A DNA stretch of 64,000 nt from Octopus sinensis (Eukaryota), in NCBI RefSeq assembly GCF_006345805.1, contig NW_021832863.1:1-64000 (forward strand), read 5' to 3'. The notes under the pieces are model-generated. The model saw only the letters and a program-made list of their open reading frames with translations, searched no databases and was not told where the DNA came from. Made by a program: the position numbers and the translations under genes. This document shows positions 3,301 through 60,554 of the stretch, piece by piece; within the stretch, counting starts at the first letter, position 1; each line of letters begins with the position of its first letter.

Positions 3301-3430
3301 GCTTGATGCCGTTAATATTCCATTTAAAATGTTGCAGGCCAAAACTTTCCAGGAGAAAATTCGAGCAGAGTGAATGTTCTAGAAAAACCGATGTTGCGGG
3401 AAGGAAGGACAAGGCTTAGTGGTTAGTTTA

Positions 3431-3663
3431 AGGCGGCGACTTGGCAGAAACGTTAGCACGCCGGGCGAAATGCTTAGCGGTATTACGTCTGCCGCTACGT
3501 TCTGAGTTCAAATTCCGTCGAGGTTGACTTTGCCTTTCATCCTTTCGGGGTCGATTAAATAAGTACCAGTTACGCACTAGGGTCGATGTAATTGACTTAA
3601 TCCACTTGTCTGTCCTTGTTTGTCCCCTCTGTGTTTAACCCCTTGTGGGCAGTAAAGAAATAG
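3431..3663 (+). mobile_element. SINE family B monomer
   Basis: TGGCAGAAACGTTAG A-box-like head, GAGTTCAAATTCC B-box, GCCTTTCATCCTTTCGGGGTCG..AAGTACCAG core (Nin/Deu-like); TSD GGTTAGTT. Confidence 0.9.
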
Positions 3664-6393: not shown

Positions 6394-6807
6394 AGGCGGC
6401 GAGCTGGCAGAAACGTTAGCACGCCGGGCGAAATGCGTAGCCGTATTTCGTCTGCCGTTACGTTCTGAGTTCAAATTCCGCCGAGGTCGACTTTGCCTTT
6501 CATACTTTCGGGGTCGATTAAATAAGTACCAGTTACACACTGGGGTCGATATAATCGACTTGATCTGTTTGTCTGTCCTTGTTTGTCCTCTCTATGTTTA
6601 GCCCTTTGTGAGTAGTAAAGAAATAGGTATTTAGTCTGTCGTCACGTTCTGAGTTCAAATTCCGCCGAGGTCGACTTTGCTTTTCATCCTTTCGGGGTCG
6701 ATAAATAAAGTACCAGTTTTGCACAGGGTCGATGTAATCGACTTAACCCCTTTGCCTGTCCTTGTTTGTCCCCTCTATGTTTAGCCCCTTGTGGGGAATA
6801 AAGAAAT
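6394..6807 (+). mobile_element. SINE family B dimer
   Basis: Two tandem units; TSD CACCCTGGAAA at 6378-6388 and 6812-6822. Confidence 0.9.
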
Positions 6808-17890: not shown

Positions 17891-18531
17891 ACAGACGCAT
17901 AATCATATACATTAGCACACATACGTGAACACTCACTATTGCAAACATACAACTCTACATACACACATGGACACATATACACGTAACAGTAATACATAAT
18001 AAAACAGAAGCAATTCTTGAAAAAAGATATTTGAATATGAAAAACTCATATAATAGTGTTATACAAGTTTAATAAAAATGTTCTGAGATAAAAAATGTTT
18101 TAAATCGACAATAAAAATCGAAAAAAAAAATTAAGGAAAGAGTGTGTATTTTATATAAGAGGAGGTACATTGGGGGTACAAAAACATTTAATCAATCAAT
18201 TTCGATACACAAATTGTAGACAAACAAGAAACATATAAATTTAGTATTTCTGTGAAAATAAACCCCGTGTTATATAATAGGAATCGATAGAGAATCTAAC
18301 CAACTAGTTGGCTCATTTCACTTGGAGTAATGGAAGGGATGTTATCATCGCTGGTAACTCTGTTGATTTGCAGCGTTCGGAAGCGTTCTCACGCTTGGTA
18401 TATTTGGGTTTACGATGATGAATATGGTGGAGTGGAAAGGGTTAATTTTTGAGGCGAGTTATCTAATATGTGCAGCGTGGGGTTGGACGCCAAGTGGGCA
18501 GCAAATGCAAAGCTTTCCCTGTGGACATACC

Positions 18532-18945
18532 TATTTCTTTACTACCCACAAGGGGCTAAACACAGAGAGGGGACAAACAAGGACAGACAAACGGATTAAG
18601 TCGATTATATCGACCCCAGTGCGTAACTGGTCCTTAATTTATCGACCCCGAAAGGATGAAAGGCAAAGTCGACCTCGGCGGAATTTGAACTCAGAACGTA
18701 GCGGCAGACGAAATACCTATTTCTTTACTACCCACAAAGGGCTAAACACAGAGAGGGGACAAACAAGGACAGACAAACGGATTAAGTCGATTATATCGAC
18801 CCCAGTGCGTAACTGGTACTTTATTTATCGACCCCGAAAGGATGAAAGGCAAAGTCGACCTCGGCGGAATTTGAACTCAAAACGTAGCGGCAGACGAAAT
18901 ACCGCTAAGCATTTCGCCCGGAGCGCTAACGTTTCTGCCAGCTCG
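18532..18945 (-). mobile_element. SINE family B dimer
   Basis: 13-bp TSD CTGTGGACATACC at 18519-18531 and 18946-18958. Confidence 0.92.
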
Positions 18946-19427: not shown

Positions 19428-20084
19428 AAGGCGGCGAGCTGGCAGAAACGTTAGCTTGCCGGGCGAAATGCGTAGCCGTATTTCGTCTGCCGTTACGTTC
19501 TGAGTTCAAATTCCGCCGAGGTCGACTTTGCCTTTTATCCTTTCGGGGTCGATAAATAAAGTACCAGTTATGCACTGGGGTAGATGTTATCGACTTAATC
19601 CGTTTGTCTGACCTTTTTTGTCCCCTCTATGTTTAGCACCTTGTGGGTAATAAGGAAACAGGTATTTCAAAGGAGCGGGCTGGCAGAAACGTTAGCACCC
19701 CGGGCAAAATGCTTAGCGGTATTTCGTCTGCCGCTACGTTCTGAGTTCAAATTCCGCCGAGGTCGACTTTGCCTTTCATCTTTTCGGGGTCGATATAATC
19801 GACTTAATCCTTTTGTCTGTCCTTGTTTGTCCCCTCTATGTTTAGCCCCTTGTGGGTAATAAAAAAACAGGTATTTCAAAGGCGGCGGGCTGGCAGAAAC
19901 GTTAGCACACCGGGCAAAATGCTTAGCGGTATTTCGTCTACCGCTACGTTCTGAGTTCAAATTCCGCCGAGGTCGACTTTGCCTTTCATCCTTTCGGGGT
20001 CGATATAATCGACTTAATCCTTTTGTCTGTCCTTGTTTGTCCTCTCCTCACTGTATTTAGCCCCTTGTGGGTAGTAAAGAAATA
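19428..20084 (+). mobile_element. SINE family B trimer (all units keep the head)
   Basis: 15-bp TSD GGTATAAAGTGTTAT at 19413-19427 and 20085-20099. Confidence 0.92.
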
Positions 20085-20979
20085 GGTATAAAGTGTTATT
20101 GTGTCTTTGTACCGTTGGAAGGGGCCAAAGTGTTAACTGTCTATTGTTTCCGATAAATATTGAATGTGTTTTGTTAGCTTGTAATCTTGGAATTAAATCT
20201 TTCTGTAGGCATGTGATGAATATGATAAAGCCTCATTTTACCGTTGCAGAACCGTTCTGCAAAGGCGATGCTTTCTGTGGCAGTCGAAATACAATAAAAC
20301 ACATCGAAATCTCTTTTTTAGCATTCATAGATGTTGTTTTGCAAAGCATGAACGATCTTAAGAGAACGCGAAGGAAAGAAAAAATCTATTACTAAACCTA
20401 ATAAATAAATATATGAGAAGAAATGTGTGAGTCAGAGAAATAAATCATAACCTGTTCGTTCAGTGAGAGATGGAGAGAGAAAAATATTGGGAAATGAAAT
20501 TAATTTACCTCCCACCAGTGAGAACAACTCGCATATAAATATACTTCTATTAAAGAAAGGTATCAGAGAAAATTGCTTTCTATACGGATAATTCATTTCA
20601 TCTCATGCTGACCACTTTATTTTTGTGGTTCTATGATAGAGAATTAAGTCAAAAACAGGACCAAAATATTATTCAGCAGCATCTCTCGAACATTTATAAT
20701 ACCTTAACTAATAATAGGTATATTTCTATTTCTTGGGTTTTTCTCTGTAGCCAGTGGCCGCAGACGGTTTCAAGGAATATGATAGATAATAAAATTGAAA
20801 GCTAATTAGCCCCCAATGACATCCATGGAGTCTCATTTCTCTCCTTCTTTAATATTGGCAGGAGAAAACAGAAAGGAAAAAGGTGAATATTTAATTAATT
20901 TTTTATTTTTTGCGAATATCATTTCATCAAATCAATTCTTAGAATAATTCCAACTCTTTAACAGTACTGTGAAAAGTTC

Positions 20980-22242: not shown

Positions 22243-22282
<40 letters not shown>
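22122..22282. repeat. (AAT)n microsatellite
   Basis: Directly visible. Confidence 0.95.
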
Positions 22283-22283
<1 letters not shown>

Positions 22284-23285
22284 CAGTGAAAATGAAAATT
22301 AACAGAAAAATCCGCAAGCTACTGACTTGTAATAAGATACACCATCCAAAGGCAGACGTGGATCGTCTTTACCTTCCCAGAGCTCAGGGAGGACGAGGCT
22401 TGATCCAAATTGAACTTACGTACAAAACCACCACAATCGGACTTGCCAAATACCTTGAAACAACCAACGATTGGATGCTAGAACTTGTTGAAAAACACGA
22501 AAGACCGGAAAAACTTCAATCTATTCTGAAAGAGAGCAAACAATTCGCTACTGATCTCTTAGATACCAACCAGATTGATCAGGTTGAAGGAAATGCGCCA
22601 AATGCTGCTGCAAAGAAAATAAAATTAATTGCAAAGACAAAAGCACATGAAAAATTAGCTAGCAGATGGAACAGAAATCTCTGCATGGCAAGTATGTGGC
22701 CCGTAGCAAACAGGCTGATGTCGACCAGAAACAAACGCACCAATGGTTACGAAGCTCAGGCATAAAAGCAGAGAGTAAAGGTTTCATATTAGCTGCTCAA
22801 GACCAAAGCTTATTAACCCGGAACTACCAAGCCAATGGGATAAAAAATGGAGCTGATCCAAAATGCCGATTCTGTAACGATGGGATTGAAACTATAGACA
22901 ACCTAATCTCCGGGTGTAGAGCCTTAGCAATTCGAGGGTGAAAGGTAATTAAACAGAACAGATTGAGAAATACCAGCTACTACGGGACGATATACGAAAG
23001 TTATGGGGCATGAGGAAAGTAATGGTGATACCGGTGGTAATTGGAACATTAGGAGCAATTTCCAAGGGCTTTGAAAAACATGTTAAGAATATTGGAGCTG
23101 CTGTCAGGCTCGAGGTGACCCAAAAGACAGCATTGTTGGGTACAGCTTGCATTCTAAGGAGAATGTTGTCTCTTTGAGTTACAAGAGAAGACACTACTTG
23201 ACATATTTGATAATTTGTTATTGCCTGCTTTCGAGTAACTGGTAATTAAGATCTATCCGAGAAGTTTTCATAAAAAAAAAGAAAT
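22284..23285 (+). mobile_element. 5'-truncated R4/Dong-like LINE with internal deletion
   Basis: HPKADVDRLYLPRAQGGRGL; LHGKY..WL..LAAQDQSLLTRNY..CRFC (zinc knuckle); then IEKYQLL..LWG..VIPVVIGTLG..QKTALLGTACILRR (RLE C-terminus), 3' UTR and A-tail; adjoins (AAT)n. Confidence 0.92.
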
Positions 23286-25831: not shown

Positions 25832-26455
25832 TACGCGGGGGTAACCACAGGTAACCGGACACGTTCTTTGTGGGACAAATCCGCTGTAGTTCAGGCTTCC
25901 ACCGCTAGAATCCACTTGATGCGACCCTCAGGTATCAGTCTACCGACCGGTGTCGTCTACTGCGGTCTTACTGCCACGTGGTGCATCTTTCGTTTTGCAG
26001 TGCTTCAACTCTGTTCGTCGATTTTTGCGATGGCTGAATCGAAGAAACACTGTACTTCCGTGAAATCTTCTTTTCTGCTGGGGAAAACGGCAGCCGAAAC
26101 AGTTTTCATGCTTCAAACAGCTTAGAAGTTCGCTGCCATGTACAAAACATAGGTTTACGAGTGGTTTTCATGCGTTAGGAATGGGAAATTGTCGCTTGAG
26201 AACCACCCTCTTTCAGGGCGACCGTCGACCGCCCGAACGAAGGAAAACATCATTGAAAATTCATGAACTGATCTTTGAGGACCGTCACCGAACAATTGAC
26301 GAACTTGTTGATATTACTACTGTGTCCTGGAGCTCCTGCAAACGAATTTTGAGCGAAGAATTGCGAATGAAAAGAGTTGCAGCAAAATGTGTGCCTCGCT
26401 TGCTCACAGAAGATCAAAAGCAGTCACGACTGAATGCGTATCGTGAACTGAAACT
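25832..26455 (+). mobile_element. Mariner transposase pseudogene, 5' part
   Basis: LGKTAAETVFMLQTA..VYEWF..SGRPST..EDRHRTIDELV..ILSEELRMKRVAAKCVPRLLTEDQK (HTH domains plus WVPRLL-type motif); stops and frameshift. Confidence 0.92.
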
Positions 26456-27254
26456 CCATGTCTGTGAAGTGAACTTCTTAATGAAGCATGTCTACTTCCA
26501 CAATAAAATTGAACGAGCTCACCTAAACGATAATCTCACCTCAAGAGAATACCTATTAGCGGATAGTTATGAGCGAATAATTATAGACAATTATTGACTG
26601 TTGTCTGTTAGTGCTGCTAACTAATTTGGTTATCCCAAATTCAATATCGAAGTCCCTGCCACATTTATGGACTGTTTTAGTTCAGGAATCTATCTGTTTA
26701 TAAGATTTCCCATAATCTATTCTCTTTTTTTAAATTTTAAATGCCCTGTTATTTGTGGATAACGCTATTTCACCCTTCTTGTGGGCTCATCAGTACAACA
26801 TAACTTGGGATCATGAAATTAGTTGGTCTATTTTCATTAAAAACCTTTAGGAATCATAAACGATTGATTTTCTTTTCTAAAATACACTAATATTTATTCC
26901 AATCGCCGTTCAATAACATTATTCGTATAATTATAAGCCGCTTCTACTGTATGGCTCCTTCGTATAATTATTTCCACATTTCTGTAGTCCATTATTATTG
27001 AATTCATTAATAAATAAAAGATTAAAATTAGGGTATCTGGAGAGATAGGTCAATAGAATTATCAGACGGACAGTCTTCTTAGCGGTATTCCCTTGTGCCA
27101 AAGGCCCAATATAATTTCAGCTTTCACACAAATTCAGCTCGGATGGAATGAATTATATATATATTATTAACTATGTTATGAAGCCGCATTAATAAGAGTG
27201 AAAAATTCAGAAGCGCTTCATTTACTTTAAGTTAATGAATTGACTGTCGTCAGC

Positions 27255-37137: not shown

Positions 37138-37736
37138 CGGCGAGCTGGCAGAAACGTTAGCAGGCCGGGCGAAATGCTTAGCGGTATTTCGTCTGCCGTT
37201 ACGTTCTGAGTTCAAATTCCGCCGAGGTCGACTTTGCCTTTCATCCTTTTGGGGTCGATTAAATAAGTACCATTTATGTACTGGGGTCGTTGTAATCGAC
37301 TTAATCCGTTTGTCTGTCCTTGTTTGTCCCCTCTGTATTTAGCCCCTTGTGGGTAATAAAGAAATAGGTATTTCGTCTGCCGCTACGTTCTGAGTTCAAA
37401 TTCCTTCGAGGTCGACTTTGCCTTTCATCCTTTCTGGGTCGATAAATTAAGTACCAGTTACGCACTGGGGTCGATATAATCGACTTAATCCGTTCGTCTG
37501 TCCTTGTTTGTTCTCTCTGTGTTTAGCCCCTTGTGGGTAGTAAAGAAATAGGTATTTCGTCTCCTGCTACGTTCTGAATTCAAATTCCGCCGAGGTCGAC
37601 TTTGCCTTTCATCCTTTCGGGGTCGATTAAATAAGTACCAGCTACGCACTGGGGTCGATATAATCGACTAAATCCGTTTGTCTGTCCTTGATTGTCCTCT
37701 CTGTGTTTAGCCCCTTGTGGGTAGTAAAGAAATAGG
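37138..37736 (+). mobile_element. SINE family B trimer
   Basis: One head plus two 184-bp headless units; TSD GGTAATAC(A/T)TAC. Confidence 0.92.
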
Positions 37737-38313
37737 TAATACTTACAAGTTAGTTTGATTTATTTATTTTGTTTTATTTTTGCAAACTACGACTCGTTTT
37801 ATAAGTCCACTCAACAGTTTCTTATCGGAACCTTGTGGATACGGAGGAAGCAAGCAAAAACGAAAACAGTAAACAAATATGATCATGTATTTGGAAAAAG
37901 AGTAAAAGAGAGAAAAAGAAAAGATGGGAGATCTGCCGAAGAACGCCTGTTACGTGATGATGCTTATCACATGAAAACAAACAAATATCTGCGCTTTTCC
38001 TTAACGAAATATAAAAAGTAAAGTGACAATACATGGAGATAGTAAAAAAAAAAAAATATTTGAGTTTAGATTGATCGCTTACAAACAGGGAATCACGGCT
38101 GTCAGTGAGAAACTCTGTTATCAGATAAGAGTAGCTTGAAGGCAAAAAAAAAACCAACAAAAAAACAAAAAAAAAAAACAGTAAAGAGAAGCATGAAACT
38201 CTGTTGAAGCTGATCATTTGTTTACAGAAATATGGGACAGTGAGAAATCGCAGTCATCCTCTTAGGAAAGTACGCATTCATTATGAAGAAGATATCTGAC
38301 GTGAGATAAAGTA

Positions 38314-45665: not shown

Positions 45666-46062
45666 CTATTTCTTTAATGCCCACAAGGGGCTAAACACAG
45701 AGAGAACAAACAAGGACAGAGAAACGGATTAAGCCGATTATATCGACTCCAGTGTGTAACTGGTACTTAATTTATCGACCCCGAAAGGATGAAAGGCAAA
45801 GTCGATCTCGGCGGAATTTGAACTCAGAACGTAACGGCAGAAGAAATACCTATTTCTTTACTGCCCACAAGGGGCTAAACACAGAGAGGACAAACAAGGA
45901 CAGACATAGGTATTAAGTCGATTATATCGACCCCAGGCCGTAACTGGTACTTAATTTATTGACCCCGAAAGGATGAAAGGCCAAGTCGACCTCGGCGGAA
46001 TTTGAACTCAGAACGTAACGGCAGACGAAATACGGCAACGCATTTCGCCCGGCGTGCTAACG
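45666..46062 (-). mobile_element. SINE family B dimer
   Basis: Two tandem units joined at GAAATACCTATTTC. Confidence 0.9.
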
Positions 46063-47022: not shown

Positions 47023-47731
47023 ACACACACACACACACACACACACACATAGGGATTTCACACATTTTCCGTCTAACAAATTTGCTGCATTTGGAAACAA
47101 TCAGTTCTGCTGTCGCTAACGTGATTATTGTTACTGAACGAACAGAAACAAAAAGATGTATATAATGTGATCATCCTGCCATTCCCTTTAGGGATTGTAT
47201 ATCTAGGGGCTACTTTCTCTGATATGGCCATCCATTTTTTGTTTAACGATGGCTGGTTGTAAAAGTGAGGGAGAATTCAGTATTAGTTACACCAGGTCGG
47301 GCAATAATAGAAACTCCCTCCATTGTTGTTTAGTTTCGTGGATTATTGATGTTTCTCTAGTTTAGAGTCCAGGTTATACAGGTTATGCAGACCTGTCATC
47401 AAATTCGTTCCAGTGACAACACCACTATTCTTGTTTTCGAAATAAAAAAGGGCTTACATTATGCAATGTTTCGTGTACTTTCTACAGACGTTTCGATGCG
47501 GATTGCGGAAGATTTGGTTGCCATTTCTACAAAGTCGTGCATTTTGTCAGAAGTTTAGTTGCCGGAAGTCGAGTAAAATTTTGGCAAATCTTTTATACAG
47601 TACTGTGTTGTTAGTATATGTGTGATGCGCTTCTAAAAAAAGTGGAGGGTGGGAAAGTTAGTCCACCCAGGGAGGAAATTAAACGAGTTAAAGGCAAATT
47701 ACTGGTATCAAATTATTTTAAAATTAGTTCT

Positions 47732-47961
47732 CTTTTAATCTTTTACTCTTTTACTTGTTTCAGTCATTTGACTGAGGGCATGCTGGAGCAACACCTTTAG
47801 CCGAGCAAATCGACTCCAGAACTTATTCTTTGTAAGCATAGTACTTATTCTATCGGTCTCTTTTGCCAAACCGCACCAGTATTTGTTGTAAACACACCAG
47901 CATCGTTTGTCAAGCAATGCTAGGGGGACAAACACAGACACACAAACATATACACACACTT

Positions 47962-47990
<29 letters not shown>
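47732..47990 (-). mobile_element. SINE family A 3' half (5' half at 51374-51618)
   Basis: Collinear with the 5543-5950 copy; shared TSD TAGTTCT. Confidence 0.85.
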
Positions 47991-47992
<2 letters not shown>

Positions 47993-49994
47993 GTGAAATA
48001 GAAAGATGAATAATCTTGTAGTAGATTAATCAAAAGTTTAACCGATACCTTAGTAGCAAAAATCACAGCAGTGAACAGCACGGTTGGAGTACAAACCCTG
48101 GCGTTGCAACCGTGCGTTGGTGCGGATAATTGAAATTAAAACATTATTGGTGAATTGAAGAAATGGGCTGAACGCAGATTGAACAGAAATCGTTTTATTT
48201 CATTCTACACGTGTTTCGAAAGGCACAAATTACCAAATCCGATTGAATAATGGGACCATATTGTGTCTTTCTCTTCAGGAGAAAAAAGGAAATCCGTTGG
48301 AAAAACAAAAACAGAACAGAGGCAGAGCAAAAAACAAATCGAACTGTGCTCCTAAGAGCCCATGGCGAAACTGTTTATCAGTGTATGTGAGAACCGGTGG
48401 CTGAAGAATTCAACAGGTCAGGCATCGGTCAATCATGTGGGTGAGGGGTATAGATGTTCTTTGTGACCGAGAATAAAGTTCTGACTATTTAAAGAATATG
48501 GATGTTTTATAAGGGGCGAGAAAAAATCTACTTAGAGACGTGTGTGTGTGTATACTGTTCTATATATGTGTGTGTTGGCGTAGGGGTAGAAAACATTTTT
48601 TGTGTACGTGTGTGCGTTTGATCGTTCGGCTGTCAGTGGCTACTGCCGTGATAACCGTTGGGTGGCAGAAAAAAAAAATAAAGAATTATATATTATATTA
48701 TGTTTTATGTGTGTGTGGTGTGTGTTCATCTGAGCCTGCCTTGACAAGGAAACCCCCGCTGTGAAAAACAAGCCCCGTTTGTCTTACAGGAGTAATTTCC
48801 CTTGCAGTGGTTAATTGTAGATATCTTAAAATCTATTTCAGAATTTGTTACCAAGGGCTATGGGTGCCGGTCTTATTTATAAACGCTATTTAAAGGCCAG
48901 ATAAGTGTAACGCCGCCAATGGGGGCATCGAAAAGCCGACTGTAAGAGCCCGTTTACCATCCGGCCTCTGGCAAACAAATATGGAAGAGTTCGGAGACAC
49001 AAAGGTTGCACTGTCTTCTGCCCCTATCAAATGGGAGGGCCACCGACAAAATTGACCATTCCAGCCTATAGCTTAAGTTCGCATCCTTCAGTCGCCATAT
49101 TAGCTTACTGAGTCCCGTGGTCTGGCGCTTGTTCACGTCCCGAAAAGTTGCGTAATGGTTGGAGACACGCAAAGACAATCTTGAGGATGATGCCCCTATA
49201 TAAGTGAAGGCATCTGAGTCCGTGTAAACCTTGCATTGGTAGACGGCGTTTTTGATCTTGGAGTTCGCTGACGTGAATCTTACTCTGCTAGGATTGGTTT
49301 CTGAAATTAGAACTGCGTTCCTGTCACTATATTCGTTCCGAGACCTGCAGCCGCTTACTACTCTATTTTCCACTACGTCACTATTAACTATAGGAATAAC
49401 CCCTGATTCTCCACTACTATCAGAGTGCTGTCATTGCTACTGCCCGTGGTACTGCTATTGCGGGAAATGATGCTGGGATGCTAAAGGGGCTCTCTACCCT
49501 ACTCTCCCATTGTTCCATCAACACACAACACCCCTATTTATAACTATACCCCTAGTGGGTACTCCCTGGCTGGAGCTGAGATTATGTGTCACTGTACTGG
49601 CTCTCATATCATTATTACTACTATAATTATTCCTACTGAGCATTAAACCGGGCGGAAAGAGGCTGTGCCTCCGGAAAAAGGTGTGATAGGGTCTTAGTAA
49701 GTAGCCTATTATTATGGGAGGCGATTATCTGGGCGAGGTTTTTAGTGTTGGAGAAAGCTATCCTAACTTTATGTGAGTTAACCGTGGAGTAATATTGGAA
49801 TTTCTGGGGAGTTATTGGCGATTGCTTGTCTAAACATGAGGGGGGTTAGTTCTAATCTGCTACCAAAGGGGATTACAAACCATATATGCTTATTCCTATC
49901 AGTGTGATGGGTCGGGACGCCACTCTCGCATTTGGGTGGGTGATTCTCGGATGAATAACGGGTCTTGGGTTAGTGTAAGACCTCCCGGACCGAT
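47991..49994 (-). mobile_element. Penelope-like element, 5'-truncated sense copy (linker, GIY-YIG, pLTR)
   Basis: RNKHIWFVIPFG..NSHKVRIAFSNTKNLAQIIASHNNRLL linker; NAVYQCKV..TYIGASS..RVSNHYATFR..LSKLIWRLK..CNLCVSE GIY-YIG domain. Confidence 0.9.
48203..48282 (-). ncRNA. Hammerhead ribozyme motif in the PLE pLTR
   Basis: CTGAAGA-GAAAGACACAA...TTGTGCCTTTC-GAAA-CACGTG-TA. Confidence 0.7.
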
Positions 49995-51373
49995 TTGTGG
50001 TTGATGGTAACAATGGAGTAGGGTAGAGGAGCCCTTTAGCATCCCCAGCATCATTTCCCGCAATAGCAGTACCACGGGCAGTAGCATGACAGCACTCTGA
50101 TAGATAGTGGAGAATCAGGGGTTATTCCTATAGTTAATATGACGTAGTGGAAAATAGAGTAGTAAGCGGCTGCAGGTCTCGAACGAATATAGTGACGGAA
50201 CGCAGTTCTAATTTCAGAAACCAATCCTAGCAGAGTAAGATTCACGTCAGCGAACTCCAAGATCAAAAACGCCCGTCTACCAATGCAAGGTTTACACGGA
50301 CTCAGATGCCTTCACTTATATAGGGGCATCATCCTCAAGATTGTCTTTGCGTGTCTCCAACCATTACGCAACTTTTTTCGGGACGTGAACAAGCGCCAGA
50401 CCACGGGACTCAGTAAGCTAATATGGCGACTGAAGGATGCGAACTTAAGCTATAGGCTGGAATGGTCAATTTTGTCGGTGGCCCTCCCATTTGATAGGGG
50501 CAGAAGACAGTGCAACCTTTGTGTCTCCGAACTCTTCCATATTTTGTTTGCCAGAGGCCGGATGGTAAACGGGCTCTTACAGTCGGCTTTTCGATGCCCC
50601 CATTGGCGGCGTTACACTTATCTGGCCTTAAATAGCGTTTATAATAAGACCGGCACCCATAGCCTTGGTAACAAATTCTGAAATAGATTTTAAGATATCT
50701 ACAATTAACCACTGCAAGGGAAATTACTCCTGTAAGACAAACGGGGCTTGTTTTTTCACAGCGGGGGTTTCCTTGTCAAGGCAGGCTCAGATGAACACAC
50801 ACACACACACAAAAACATAATATATATATATAATTTCTTTATTTTTTTCTTTCTGCCACCCAACGGTTATCACGGCAGTAGCCATGACAGCCGAACGATC
50901 AAACGCACACACGTACACAAAAAATGTTTTCTACCCCTACGCCAACACACACATATATAGAACAGTATACACACACACACGTCTCTAAGTAGATTTTTTC
51001 TCGCCCCTTATAAAACATCCAATATTTTAAATAGTCAGAACTTTATTCTCGGTCACAAAGAACATCTACACCCTCACCCACATGATTGACCGATGCCTGA
51101 CCTGTTGAATTCTTCAGCCACCGGTTCTCAACATACACTGATAAACAGTTCGTCGCCATGGGCTCTTAGGAGCACAGTTCGATTTGTTTTTTGCTCTGCC
51201 TCTGTTCTGTTTTTGTTTTTCAACGGATTTCCTTTTTTCTTCCTGAAGAGAAAGACACAATATGGTCCCATTATTCAATCGGATTTTGGTAATTTGTGCC
51301 TTTCGAAACACGTGTAGAATGAAATAAAACGATTTCTGTTCAATCTGCGTTCAGCTCCATTCTTTAATTCACC
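49995..51373 (+). mobile_element. Inverted copy (pLTR) of 48149-49526
   Basis: Near-identical reverse complement over ~1.38 kb, with the same GIY-YIG peptide. Confidence 0.93.
51237..51323 (+). ncRNA. Hammerhead ribozyme motif in the inverted pLTR
   Basis: TTCTTC-CTGAAGA-stem II-GAAA-CACGTG-TA-GAATGAA. Confidence 0.72.
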
Positions 51374-51418
51374 TATATATATATATACTATATATATTAT
51401 ATATACATACATATATAT

Positions 51419-51462
<44 letters not shown>

Positions 51463-51618
51463 CATATATACGAGGGACTTCTTTCAGTTTCCGTCTACTC
51501 ACAAGGCTTTGGTCGGCTAGAGGCTATAGCAGAAGACACTTGCCCAAGGTGCCACGCAGTGGGACTGAACTCGGAGCCATCTGGCTGGTAAGCAAGCCAC
51601 TTACCACACAGCCACTCC
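51374..51618 (-). mobile_element. SINE family A internal (TA)n and 5' half
   Basis: Head ends CACACAGCCACTCC followed by TSD TAGTTCT. Confidence 0.88.
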
Positions 51619-52271
51619 TAGTTCTGTTAATTTCTGGTTCAAATATATTTTTGGGTTTTAAGCACAAGGGTAAAAACTTGGAGAACAATGTGTTAGTCAA
51701 TATTAGCGACCCCAAATTTTTGGTTAGGTTTAGGGTCAAATCATTCGAAGGAACTGAACAGAGAAAGTTAAAAGCCGAGAAAAATCCTGCAAAACAATTT
51801 TGCGACGCTCTAACAATTCTACTAGCACGCCTCCTTTTTTGGTTTAAATAATGTACACAAAGAAAACAAAAAACAAAAGCAACAACAACAAAACCGTGTA
51901 GCCATTAAGAAAGATGGCTGCTAAAGACGAAAGAAGATTGATCGGTTTTAGAATATTTAATGATAATATGTATAAATAATTAGATATTCAGAGTTCTATA
52001 TTACCAGGCTGAATTGTACAAGATGTTCCTGTCAAGAAATTCATAAAATATAAAACGATTTTTTGGTTTGTGTTATGGTAGCTGTCGGTGTTCAGCATGT
52101 GGTGCATTTATGTCCGTGCTGATCCGGAGCTTGTTTGAGCTTCGATATCACCACGCGGTTGTTGCAAAAAAATATCTTCATGTACAGAATTAAGTCGCTC
52201 AAATCTTTGTGAATGGAATCTTGGAGAAGGAAACTGTACGGAAACGCTTCAAAAAGTCATAGTTTCTGTTC

Positions 52272-59423: not shown

Positions 59424-59930
59424 GGCGGCGAGCTGGCAGAAACGTTAGCGCACCGGGCGAAATGCTTGGCGGTATTTCGTCTGTCGTTATGTTCTGAGTT
59501 CAAATTCCGCCGCGGTCAACTTTGCCTTTCATCCTTTCGGGGTCGATAAATTAAGTACCAGTTACGCACTGGGGTCGATGTAATCGACTTAATCCCTTTA
59601 TCTGTCCCTGTGTGTCCCCTCTGTGTTTAGTCCCTTGTGGGTAGTAAAGAAATAGGTATTTCGTCTGCGGCTACGTTCTGAGTTCAAATTCCGCCGAGGT
59701 AGACTTTGCCTTTCATCCTTTCGGGGTCGATAAATTAAGTACCAGTTACGCACTGGGGTCGATGTAATCGACTTAATCCCTTTATCTGTCCTTGTTTGTC
59801 CCCTCTGTGTTTAGCCCCTTGTGGGTAGTAAAGAAATAGGTATTTCGTCTGCGGCTACGTTCTGAGTTCAAATTCCGCCGAGGTAGACTTTGCCTTTCAT
59901 CCTTTCGGGGTCGATAAATTAAGTACCAGT
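59424..59930 (+). mobile_element. SINE family B 2.5-mer
   Basis: 184-bp period (GGTATTTCG at 59655 and 59839). Confidence 0.92.
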
Positions 59931-60452: not shown

Positions 60453-60554
60453 AAAAACATAGAACGCTTCACGAATTTGCATGTTATCCTTGTGTAGGGA
60501 CCATGCTAATCCTCTCTGTATCGTTCTAATTTTAGACTATGTAAAAGCTAGTAC
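60453..60554 (-). pseudogene. U6: U6 snRNA pseudogene
   Basis: Minus strand CTAAAATTAGAACGATACAGAGAGGATTAGCATGGTCCCTACACAAGGATAACATGCAAATTCGTGAAGCGTTCTATGTTTTT matches U6 with transitions; 5' stem-loop partly deleted. Confidence 0.93.

What the first reader, a model, noticed from the sequence alone, without database searches (positions are those of the whole stretch)
47725..51625. 3.4-kb fold-back Penelope-like element with twin hammerheads inserted into the (TA)n core of a SINE
Seen: 48149-49526 and 49995-51373 form a ~1.38-kb inverted repeat, and each arm carries a GIY-YIG domain and a CUGAAGA/GAAA hammerhead motif. The ~470-bp spacer continues the minus-strand PLE reading frame (linker region). 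The flanks are the two halves of one family A SINE, bounded by TSD TAGTTCT at 47725 and 51619. Known: PLEs often carry an inverted 5' pLTR and hammerheads. Inference: the SINE's internal microsatellite acts as a mobile landing pad for a TA-targeting PLE. Any read-through transcript would form >1.3 kb of dsRNA, a likely substrate for ADAR or small-RNA pathways.
Basis: partly seen in the sequence, partly recalled or inferred. Interest (0 to 1): 0.75.

Follow-up and report, generated by a model that had tools for sequence, protein, structure and literature searches.

The report
Zinc-finger-less Penelope retrotransposon, two-armed insertion
This 3.4-kb fold-back is one truncated copy of a young jumping-gene family with over a thousand copies that land in TA repeats as two back-to-back arms, likely copied from one RNA; it sits inside a SINE no more often than chance, but the family hits TA repeats without the zinc finger thought to do that job.

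Summary
The anatomy is confirmed: arms 48145-49528 and 49995-51377, a 466-bp spacer, a GIY-YIG remnant and a type I hammerhead in each arm, inside a SINE with a TAGTTCT duplication. It is a dead, 5'-truncated copy of a young Penelope-like family (3.65-kb unit, intact 899-aa ORF elsewhere, roughly 1,200 insertions). The fold-back is the family's normal footprint: 34 of 34 head-to-head pairs join one long and one short end, and the two arms share alleles 136 times against 1. Both arms were likely primed on one RNA from the two nicked strands. The 'SINE landing pad' idea fails: 3 of 114 other insertions split this SINE, against 20 of 305 background TA tracts. Arm differences look like consensus error (39 gap columns, 3 mismatches) with no central gradient. 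dsRNA and ADAR effects are untested and not special to this locus. The unusual point is that this family and a sister family lost the RT-EN linker cysteines kept by 27 of 27 long relatives, yet 641 of 693 ends abut TA. The scan noted the two-end rule, and a PLE in a SINE's TA repeat, earlier on other DNA.

The parts
47725..47731 (.). SINE target-site duplication TAGTTCT (left)
   Evidence: same 7-mer at 51619-51625
47732..47945 (-). 3' half (tail) of a tRNA-headed SINE with an internal microsatellite
   Evidence: median 83% to 38 other copies
47946..47987 (.). SINE-internal (CA)/(TA)n, left part of the PLE target
47988..48138 (-). PLE one-sided tail (unit 1-153, the 5' leader of the next tandem unit); ends at the distal 'long' terminus
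   Evidence: about 45 nt upstream of the ORF ATG in full-length copies
48137..49994 (-). PLE major arm, unit 3648->1772: thumb, linker, GIY-YIG remnant, 3' UTR and hammerhead; no RT core
48203..48281 (-). type I hammerhead motif, left arm
48888..49260 (-). GIY-YIG/CCHH endonuclease remnant, left arm (approximate limits; frameshifted)
49529..49994 (-). unpaired spacer, which is the part of the major arm beyond the start of the minor arm
49995..51372 (+). PLE minor arm, unit 2243->3640, ending at the proximal 'short' terminus
50260..50634 (+). GIY-YIG/CCHH endonuclease remnant, right arm (approximate limits; frameshifted)
51240..51319 (+). type I hammerhead motif, right arm; predicted cut after 51316
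51373..51470 (.). SINE-internal (TA)n, right part of the PLE target
51471..51618 (-). 5' half (tRNA-like head and core) of the SINE
   Evidence: median 83% to 48 other copies; A/B-box reading is recalled
51619..51625 (.). SINE target-site duplication TAGTTCT (right)

Best explanation
The feature is a truncated, non-coding copy of a young Penelope-like retrotransposon family that sits in TA repeats as two outward-facing arms with one long and one short end, likely made when the element's enzyme nicked both DNA strands and primed reverse transcription at two start sites about 150 bases apart on the same RNA; the host SINE likely just supplied one of many TA tracts. Shown: family architecture, TA targeting, one-long-one-short pairing, arm identity by descent, no SINE enrichment, loss of the linker cysteines. 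Inferred: two-strand priming on one RNA, joining of the two cDNA ends through short microhomology, an uncleaved hammerhead in the template, and assembly error as the source of the arm indels.
For: Unit of 3648 bp in natural tandems, with an intact 899-aa ORF whose model matches telomerase RTs best (pLDDT 74; top hit E 1e-8). 2450 exact 3'-junction words, 1188 running into the tail and 935 directly into TA. 34 of 34 head-to-head pairs on C1 0-153 Mb are long+short, p=1e-10 if ends were independent. In 115 fetched insertions: 91 long+short, 1 short+short, 23 with one end untyped. Minor alleles lie on both arms 136 times and on one arm once (198 expected); arms differ at 0.16% of sites within insertions against 1.1% between (68 insertions). 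Inner breakpoints coincide within 5 nt in 13 of 84 (1.5 expected), and within 20 nt in 8 of 31 outside hotspots (0.9 expected). The short-end arm is the longer in 39 of 85, and 19 of 87 long arms consist of tail only, so neither arm can be a simple DNA copy of the other. 41 of 65 junctions overlap by 1-5 nt. 0 of 190 breakpoints fall at unit 3579-3582, just behind the predicted ribozyme cut. PMC11167929 (parts 1-2 of 4 read) reports nicking and extension on both strands, two internal RT starts that define the tail, a predicted dimer, and no need for hammerhead cleavage in vitro. SINE test.
Against: Shared alleles would also arise from two RNAs of one source locus, or from gene conversion between arms. 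PMC11167929 saw no difference in start site between strands, which does not by itself predict strict long+short pairing. One fetched locus is short+short (L077) and one looks long+long on inspection (L149). 80 of the 115 insertions were picked by one end type, and 60 of these by a pattern that required TA. The SINE test has a wide interval (0.5-7.5% vs 4.1-9.9%) and cannot exclude a weak enrichment. This copy has an indel rate of 1.8% against an intact unit, among the highest of the long copies, so its local consensus rests on poor data.
Confidence: 0.8

Rival explanations
1. The inverted arm is made by self-priming or fold-back: one cDNA (or an antisense template) snaps back and copies itself, as proposed for Adineta Penelope elements.
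For: Explains identical alleles and the palindromic junctions where both arms stop at the same base (18 of 87 within 12 nt). PMC3846280 (passages) argues for self-priming from palindromes at inverted junctions.
Against: Many insertions have arms that share no sequence (tail-only long arm plus 3'-UTR short arm), or a short-end arm longer than the long-end arm. A copy of one arm cannot supply those.
Confidence: 0.12
2. The SINE's internal (TA)n is a preferred, mobile landing pad for this PLE.
For: Three more split SINEs exist (L051, L112, L116). This SINE supplies about 5-7% of TA tracts, and most intact copies carry some TA (median longest run 12 nt in 36 head-tail pairs).
Against: No enrichment at any of 5 tract-length cut-offs or 2 distances (odds ratios 0.35-1.03). 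The SINE is far older than the PLE. The flanks are single-copy, so the composite has not moved.
Confidence: 0.04
3. This particular inverted repeat is a long-read fold-back chimera.
For: Arm differences are nearly all single-base indels. The window is an unplaced 64-kb contig.
Against: The arms end at different family-typical termini, the spacer is unique, and the two flanks are different halves of one SINE with a duplication. A fold-back read would mirror the flank. The same layout recurs in about 90 other fetched insertions.
Confidence: 0.04

Closest known systems
C-terminal EN+ Penelope-like elements of the Neptune/Nematis type (Craig et al. 2021, PMC8557442; passages read)
   Same: [quoted passage not shown]
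   Different: The linker Zn-finger cysteines that define Neptune/Nematis are lost (1 of 4 left; 0 in the sister family). The tail is about 150 nt rather than 30-40. A disordered Ser/Asn-rich insert of about 130 aa lies in the linker.
Poseidon_Ac of Anolis (Frangieh et al. 2024, PMC11167929; parts 1-2 of 4 read)
   Same: Two internal 3' termini define the tail; AT-rich target; copies read through the hammerhead site.
   Different: There the starts lie inside the ORF and are adjacent; here they lie in the 5' leader, 150 nt apart, and are paired one long with one short. Poseidon is a different clade.
Adineta Pen2a and Pen3/4 (Arkhipova et al. 2013, PMC3846280; passages read)
   Same: Inverted pLTR with an optional tail; low-complexity N-rich in-frame insert between RT and EN; a PLE nested in another element.
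   Different: Low copy number, true TSDs, and no microsatellite targeting in the passages seen.
PLE type I hammerheads with a small palindromic helix III (Cervera and de la Pena 2014, PMC4209133; passages read)
   Same: Conserved core, short helix I, 2-bp helix III with a palindromic 4-nt loop, predicted to work as a dimer.
   Different: Long helix II (10-11 bp plus a large loop); cleavage untested.

Membership tests
EN+ Penelope-like element | Single ORF with telomerase-like RT | tested here: met
   899-aa ORF in L041 with YRDD; fold closest to TERTs. Pfam gave no significant hit. The window copy lacks the RT core.
EN+ Penelope-like element | C-terminal GIY-YIG EN with conserved R, H, E, N and CCHH | tested here: met
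   Alignment A1 with 12 homologues; same motifs in both window arms
EN+ Penelope-like element | Tandem/inverted pLTR layout with a one-sided tail | tested here: met
EN+ Penelope-like element | Hammerhead motif in the terminal repeat | tested here: met
   Rfam models did not score it
Neptune/Nematis clades | [quoted passage not shown] | tested here: not met
   One Cys left in this family (37 copies translated), none in 12 of 12 sister loci; 27 of 27 long homologues keep CxC-x-CP-x-C. That this is the motif Craig et al. write CX2-5CxxC is my reading.
Neptune/Nematis clades | RT phylogeny with named clade members | tested here: inconclusive
   Nests among motif-bearing relatives on a long branch (quick tree, SH-aLRT 99-100), but no named Neptune or Nematis references were available. 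The Neptune label is recalled.
Type I hammerhead ribozyme | Core CUGANGA/GAAA/UH with three helices | tested here: met
   93% of cells paired, 2 pairs with two-sided change between two families, slid controls 32-54% (12 related sequences)
Type I hammerhead ribozyme | Self-cleavage | not testable with these tools
   Needs an in vitro assay; 0 of 190 breakpoints lie just behind the predicted cut
tRNA-derived SINE | Dispersed short repeat with a tRNA-like head, a tail and a TSD | tested here: inconclusive
   69 heads and 58 tails in 396 kb; 7-bp duplication here; Pol III boxes and the family name rest on recall

The most novel reading that the evidence does not exclude
A long-lived, still-active PLE lineage has discarded the linker zinc finger proposed to steer these elements to microsatellites, yet targets (TA)n almost exclusively, so targeting lies elsewhere (the EN itself or a conserved replacement segment). 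Its roughly 1,200 young insertions record a dimer priming both nicked strands from two fixed sites on a single RNA, a genomic test of how PLE inverted repeats form.
Probability: 0.55. Interest if true: 0.55.

Novelty: new variant of a known kind. Interest (0 to 1): 0.36.

Why it matters
The locus itself is ordinary and the SINE story does not hold. The family matters for two open points named in PMC8557442: how PLE inverted repeats form and what causes microsatellite bias. Allele sharing and breakpoint coincidence between arms give quantitative support for one template with two priming sites. A natural loss of the linker cysteines with TA targeting intact argues against the zinc-finger hypothesis and offers an intact ORF to test it. 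More than a thousand young fold-back insertions are also a genome-wide potential source of dsRNA, which was not tested.

Tried and rejected
Rfam at gathering and E-value thresholds found no hammerhead. Folding z-scores of the ribozyme region were about 0. Pfam and PDB sequence searches of the intact ORF gave no significant hit. An empty allele was sought with both flanks; each is single-copy in the assembly. Sequencing runs: no RNA holder listed. Short-read contigs of four runs cover both unique flanks and run into the SINE ends, but no contig bridged the centre junction in four runs from two samples; contigs show presence only and the insertion may be polymorphic, so this is no evidence either way. 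No RNA run was laid, so expression, editing and small RNAs are open. The central indel gradient was rejected. Indel rate does not scale with inverted-repeat length (rho 0.09). Hammerhead cleavage as the source of 5' ends was rejected for most arms. Rows dropped before counts: L040 and L060 (same insertion as L039), L083 (ran off the stretch); also L041, L050 and L067 (tandem or complex). The reverse-strand count double-counts and was not used. Nine literature searches found no report of this family, of allele sharing between arms, or of a linker-cysteine-less TA-targeting C-terminal-EN lineage. Arkhipova 2006, Repbase, Dfam and paper supplements were not seen and may hold these. Also read without bearing: PMC13282606, PMC12602865 and PMC4758252 (passages); bioRxiv 10.64898/2026.07.22.740005 (part 1 of 5).
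Full report
Observation. The region holds an inverted repeat, 48145-49528 against 49995-51377, with 3 mismatches and 39 gap columns in 1403, around a 466-bp spacer. Each arm translates to a frameshifted GIY-YIG/CCHH endonuclease and carries a type I hammerhead motif. The flanks are the two halves of one minus-strand SINE with TAGTTCT on both sides.

The element. A search of the own genome (2.72 Gb; the window is the unplaced contig C9334) gave 2161 candidates and 41 listed matches at 97-100%. I fetched 37 loci from these. Natural tandems define a 3648-bp unit with an intact 899-aa ORF. Its model resembles telomerase RTs most, and it has 299 relatives at E<=1e-30. The window holds unit 153->1 and 3648->1772 on the minus strand, then 2243->3640 on the plus strand, so it lacks the RT core and is dead. 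It differs from the intact unit by 7 of 1687 and 7 of 1239 substitutions but 31 and 29 gap columns, which points to a very young copy with consensus error. Exact-word counts give 2450 3'-junctions, about half continuing into the tail, so roughly 1,200 insertions. Variants shared by three or more insertions are 18 synonymous and 10 non-synonymous, against 587 and 2098 sites, so source copies are under purifying selection. The host is probably an octopus; that is inferred from the repeats and from earlier scan notes, not tested.

Insertion footprint. On C1 0-153 Mb, all 34 head-to-head pairs join one long and one short end. In 115 fetched insertions there are 91 long+short, 1 short+short and 23 with an untyped end, including single-armed copies, the window's variant short end and one apparent long+long. 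The arms of an insertion share minor alleles 136 times against 1 discordance (198 expected), and their inner breakpoints coincide more than by chance. Either arm can be the longer, and 19 of 87 long arms are tail only, which rules out simple copying of one arm from the other in those cases. Breakpoints cluster at unit 60-70, 3403-3418 and 3558-3578, but none fall just behind the predicted ribozyme cut. This fits PMC11167929 (parts 1-2 of 4 read): both strands nicked and extended, two RT starts making the tail, uncleaved RNA as template. That both arms come from one RNA molecule is my inference; two RNAs of one source or gene conversion remain possible. The inverted copy and one-sided tail are known PLE features (PMC8557442, PMC3846280; passages).

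Target. Of 731 forward-strand tail-end words, 38 are internal and 641 of the other 693 are followed by TATATA within 3 nt; (TA)4+ covers 3.7% of 396 kb of random DNA. 101 of 114 fetched insertions have TA on both sides and 13 on one (partly ascertained).

SINE test. 3 of 114 other insertions have both SINE halves around them and 9 have either half. Among 305 TA tracts in 40 random 9.9-kb stretches the counts are 20 and 42 (p=0.15 and 0.13), and no threshold shows enrichment. The SINE halves are about 83% like other copies and the flanks are unique. The PLE hit an old, fixed SINE because it contained TA. The split microsatellite here totals about 140 bp against mostly 40-70 bp in intact SINEs, so TA may be duplicated or extended at insertion; no empty allele was available to test this.

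Artefact. A fold-back read would mirror the flank and give equal ends; here the ends are the two family-typical termini and the flanks differ. Short-read contigs gave no verdict on the centre junction.

The unusual point. Relatives carry CxC-x-CP-x-C before the GIY motif (12 of 12; 27 of 27 long ones). This family keeps one cysteine. A sister family in the same genome (RT dS about 0.8, dN about 0.05; EN pN 0.16 against pS 0.77) keeps none, and its termini also run into TA wherever enough flank was seen. Both form one long branch nested among motif-bearing proteins (quick tree). PMC8557442 cites the linker motif as the hypothesised cause of microsatellite bias in Neptune and takes Hydra's TA insertions as strengthening the link, while noting that Chlamys lack it. 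This lineage is a counter-example for the cysteines, provided it moves with its own protein; mobilisation in trans by motif-bearing families was not excluded, though selection on RT and EN argues against it. The segment that replaces the motif is itself conserved (pN 0.22 against pS 0.76) and could carry the function.

Hammerhead. Core, 3-bp helix I, long helix II and 2-bp helix III with a palindromic loop match the PLE type of PMC4209133 (passages). Two helix II pairs change on both sides between the two families (this is essentially one evolutionary comparison). Activity is untested. In a read-through transcript only one motif would be in sense, and it would be paired with its antisense copy.

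dsRNA. A transcript across the locus would fold back over 1.4 kb, but no host transcript was shown, and this inverted repeat is the 6th longest of 74 (median 237 bp).

Verdict. Real, explained by known PLE biology, SINE role incidental. The value lies in the family-level evidence for one-template two-arm synthesis, which earlier scan notes saw in part on other DNA, and in the lost zinc finger. Interest 0.36; new variant of a known kind.

Noticed in passing
window 60453-60554 (-): U6 snRNA match, 84 bits, with several departures from consensus; gene or pseudogene.
   Followed up: no
window 6443-6807, 18527-18903, 19577-20089, 37183-37738, 45666-46033, 59471-59930: Tandem arrays (2-3 copies) of a 184-210-bp dispersed repeat.
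   Followed up: no
L191-L202 (e.g. L195, L200): Sister PLE family with open frames of 903-906 aa, no linker cysteines, the same two-end layout and a covarying hammerhead.
   Followed up: partly
L036:875-1287 and L037 beside the short end: PLE insertions stacked directly on older PLE ends, sharing the TA run between them; earlier insertions may supply TA targets for later ones.
   Followed up: no
L051, L112, L116: Three further SINE copies split by this PLE at the internal TA repeat.
   Followed up: yes
L035, L047, L065, L105, L107, L167: Hammerhead motifs of unrelated families with palindromic loop 3 (ACGT, AATT, GTAC, TCGA); 2 in random DNA against 0 in 5 shuffles.
   Followed up: no
L039/L040 and L060; window contig C9334: The same insertion is present on two small contigs and on C5, so the assembly holds duplicate haplotigs.
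   Followed up: partly
window 26064-26597 (+) and 22244-22765 (+): Open frames that look like a mariner-type transposase fragment and an RTE-type LINE fragment (names recalled).
   Followed up: no
unit positions 60-70, 3403-3418, 3558-3578 (L041 numbering from 4814): Breakpoint hotspots (9, 21 and 14 of 190) at the 3' feet of predicted RNA hairpins or short palindromes.
   Followed up: partly
L045:5957-9095: Satellite of about 150-bp period over 3 kb near an insertion.
   Followed up: no
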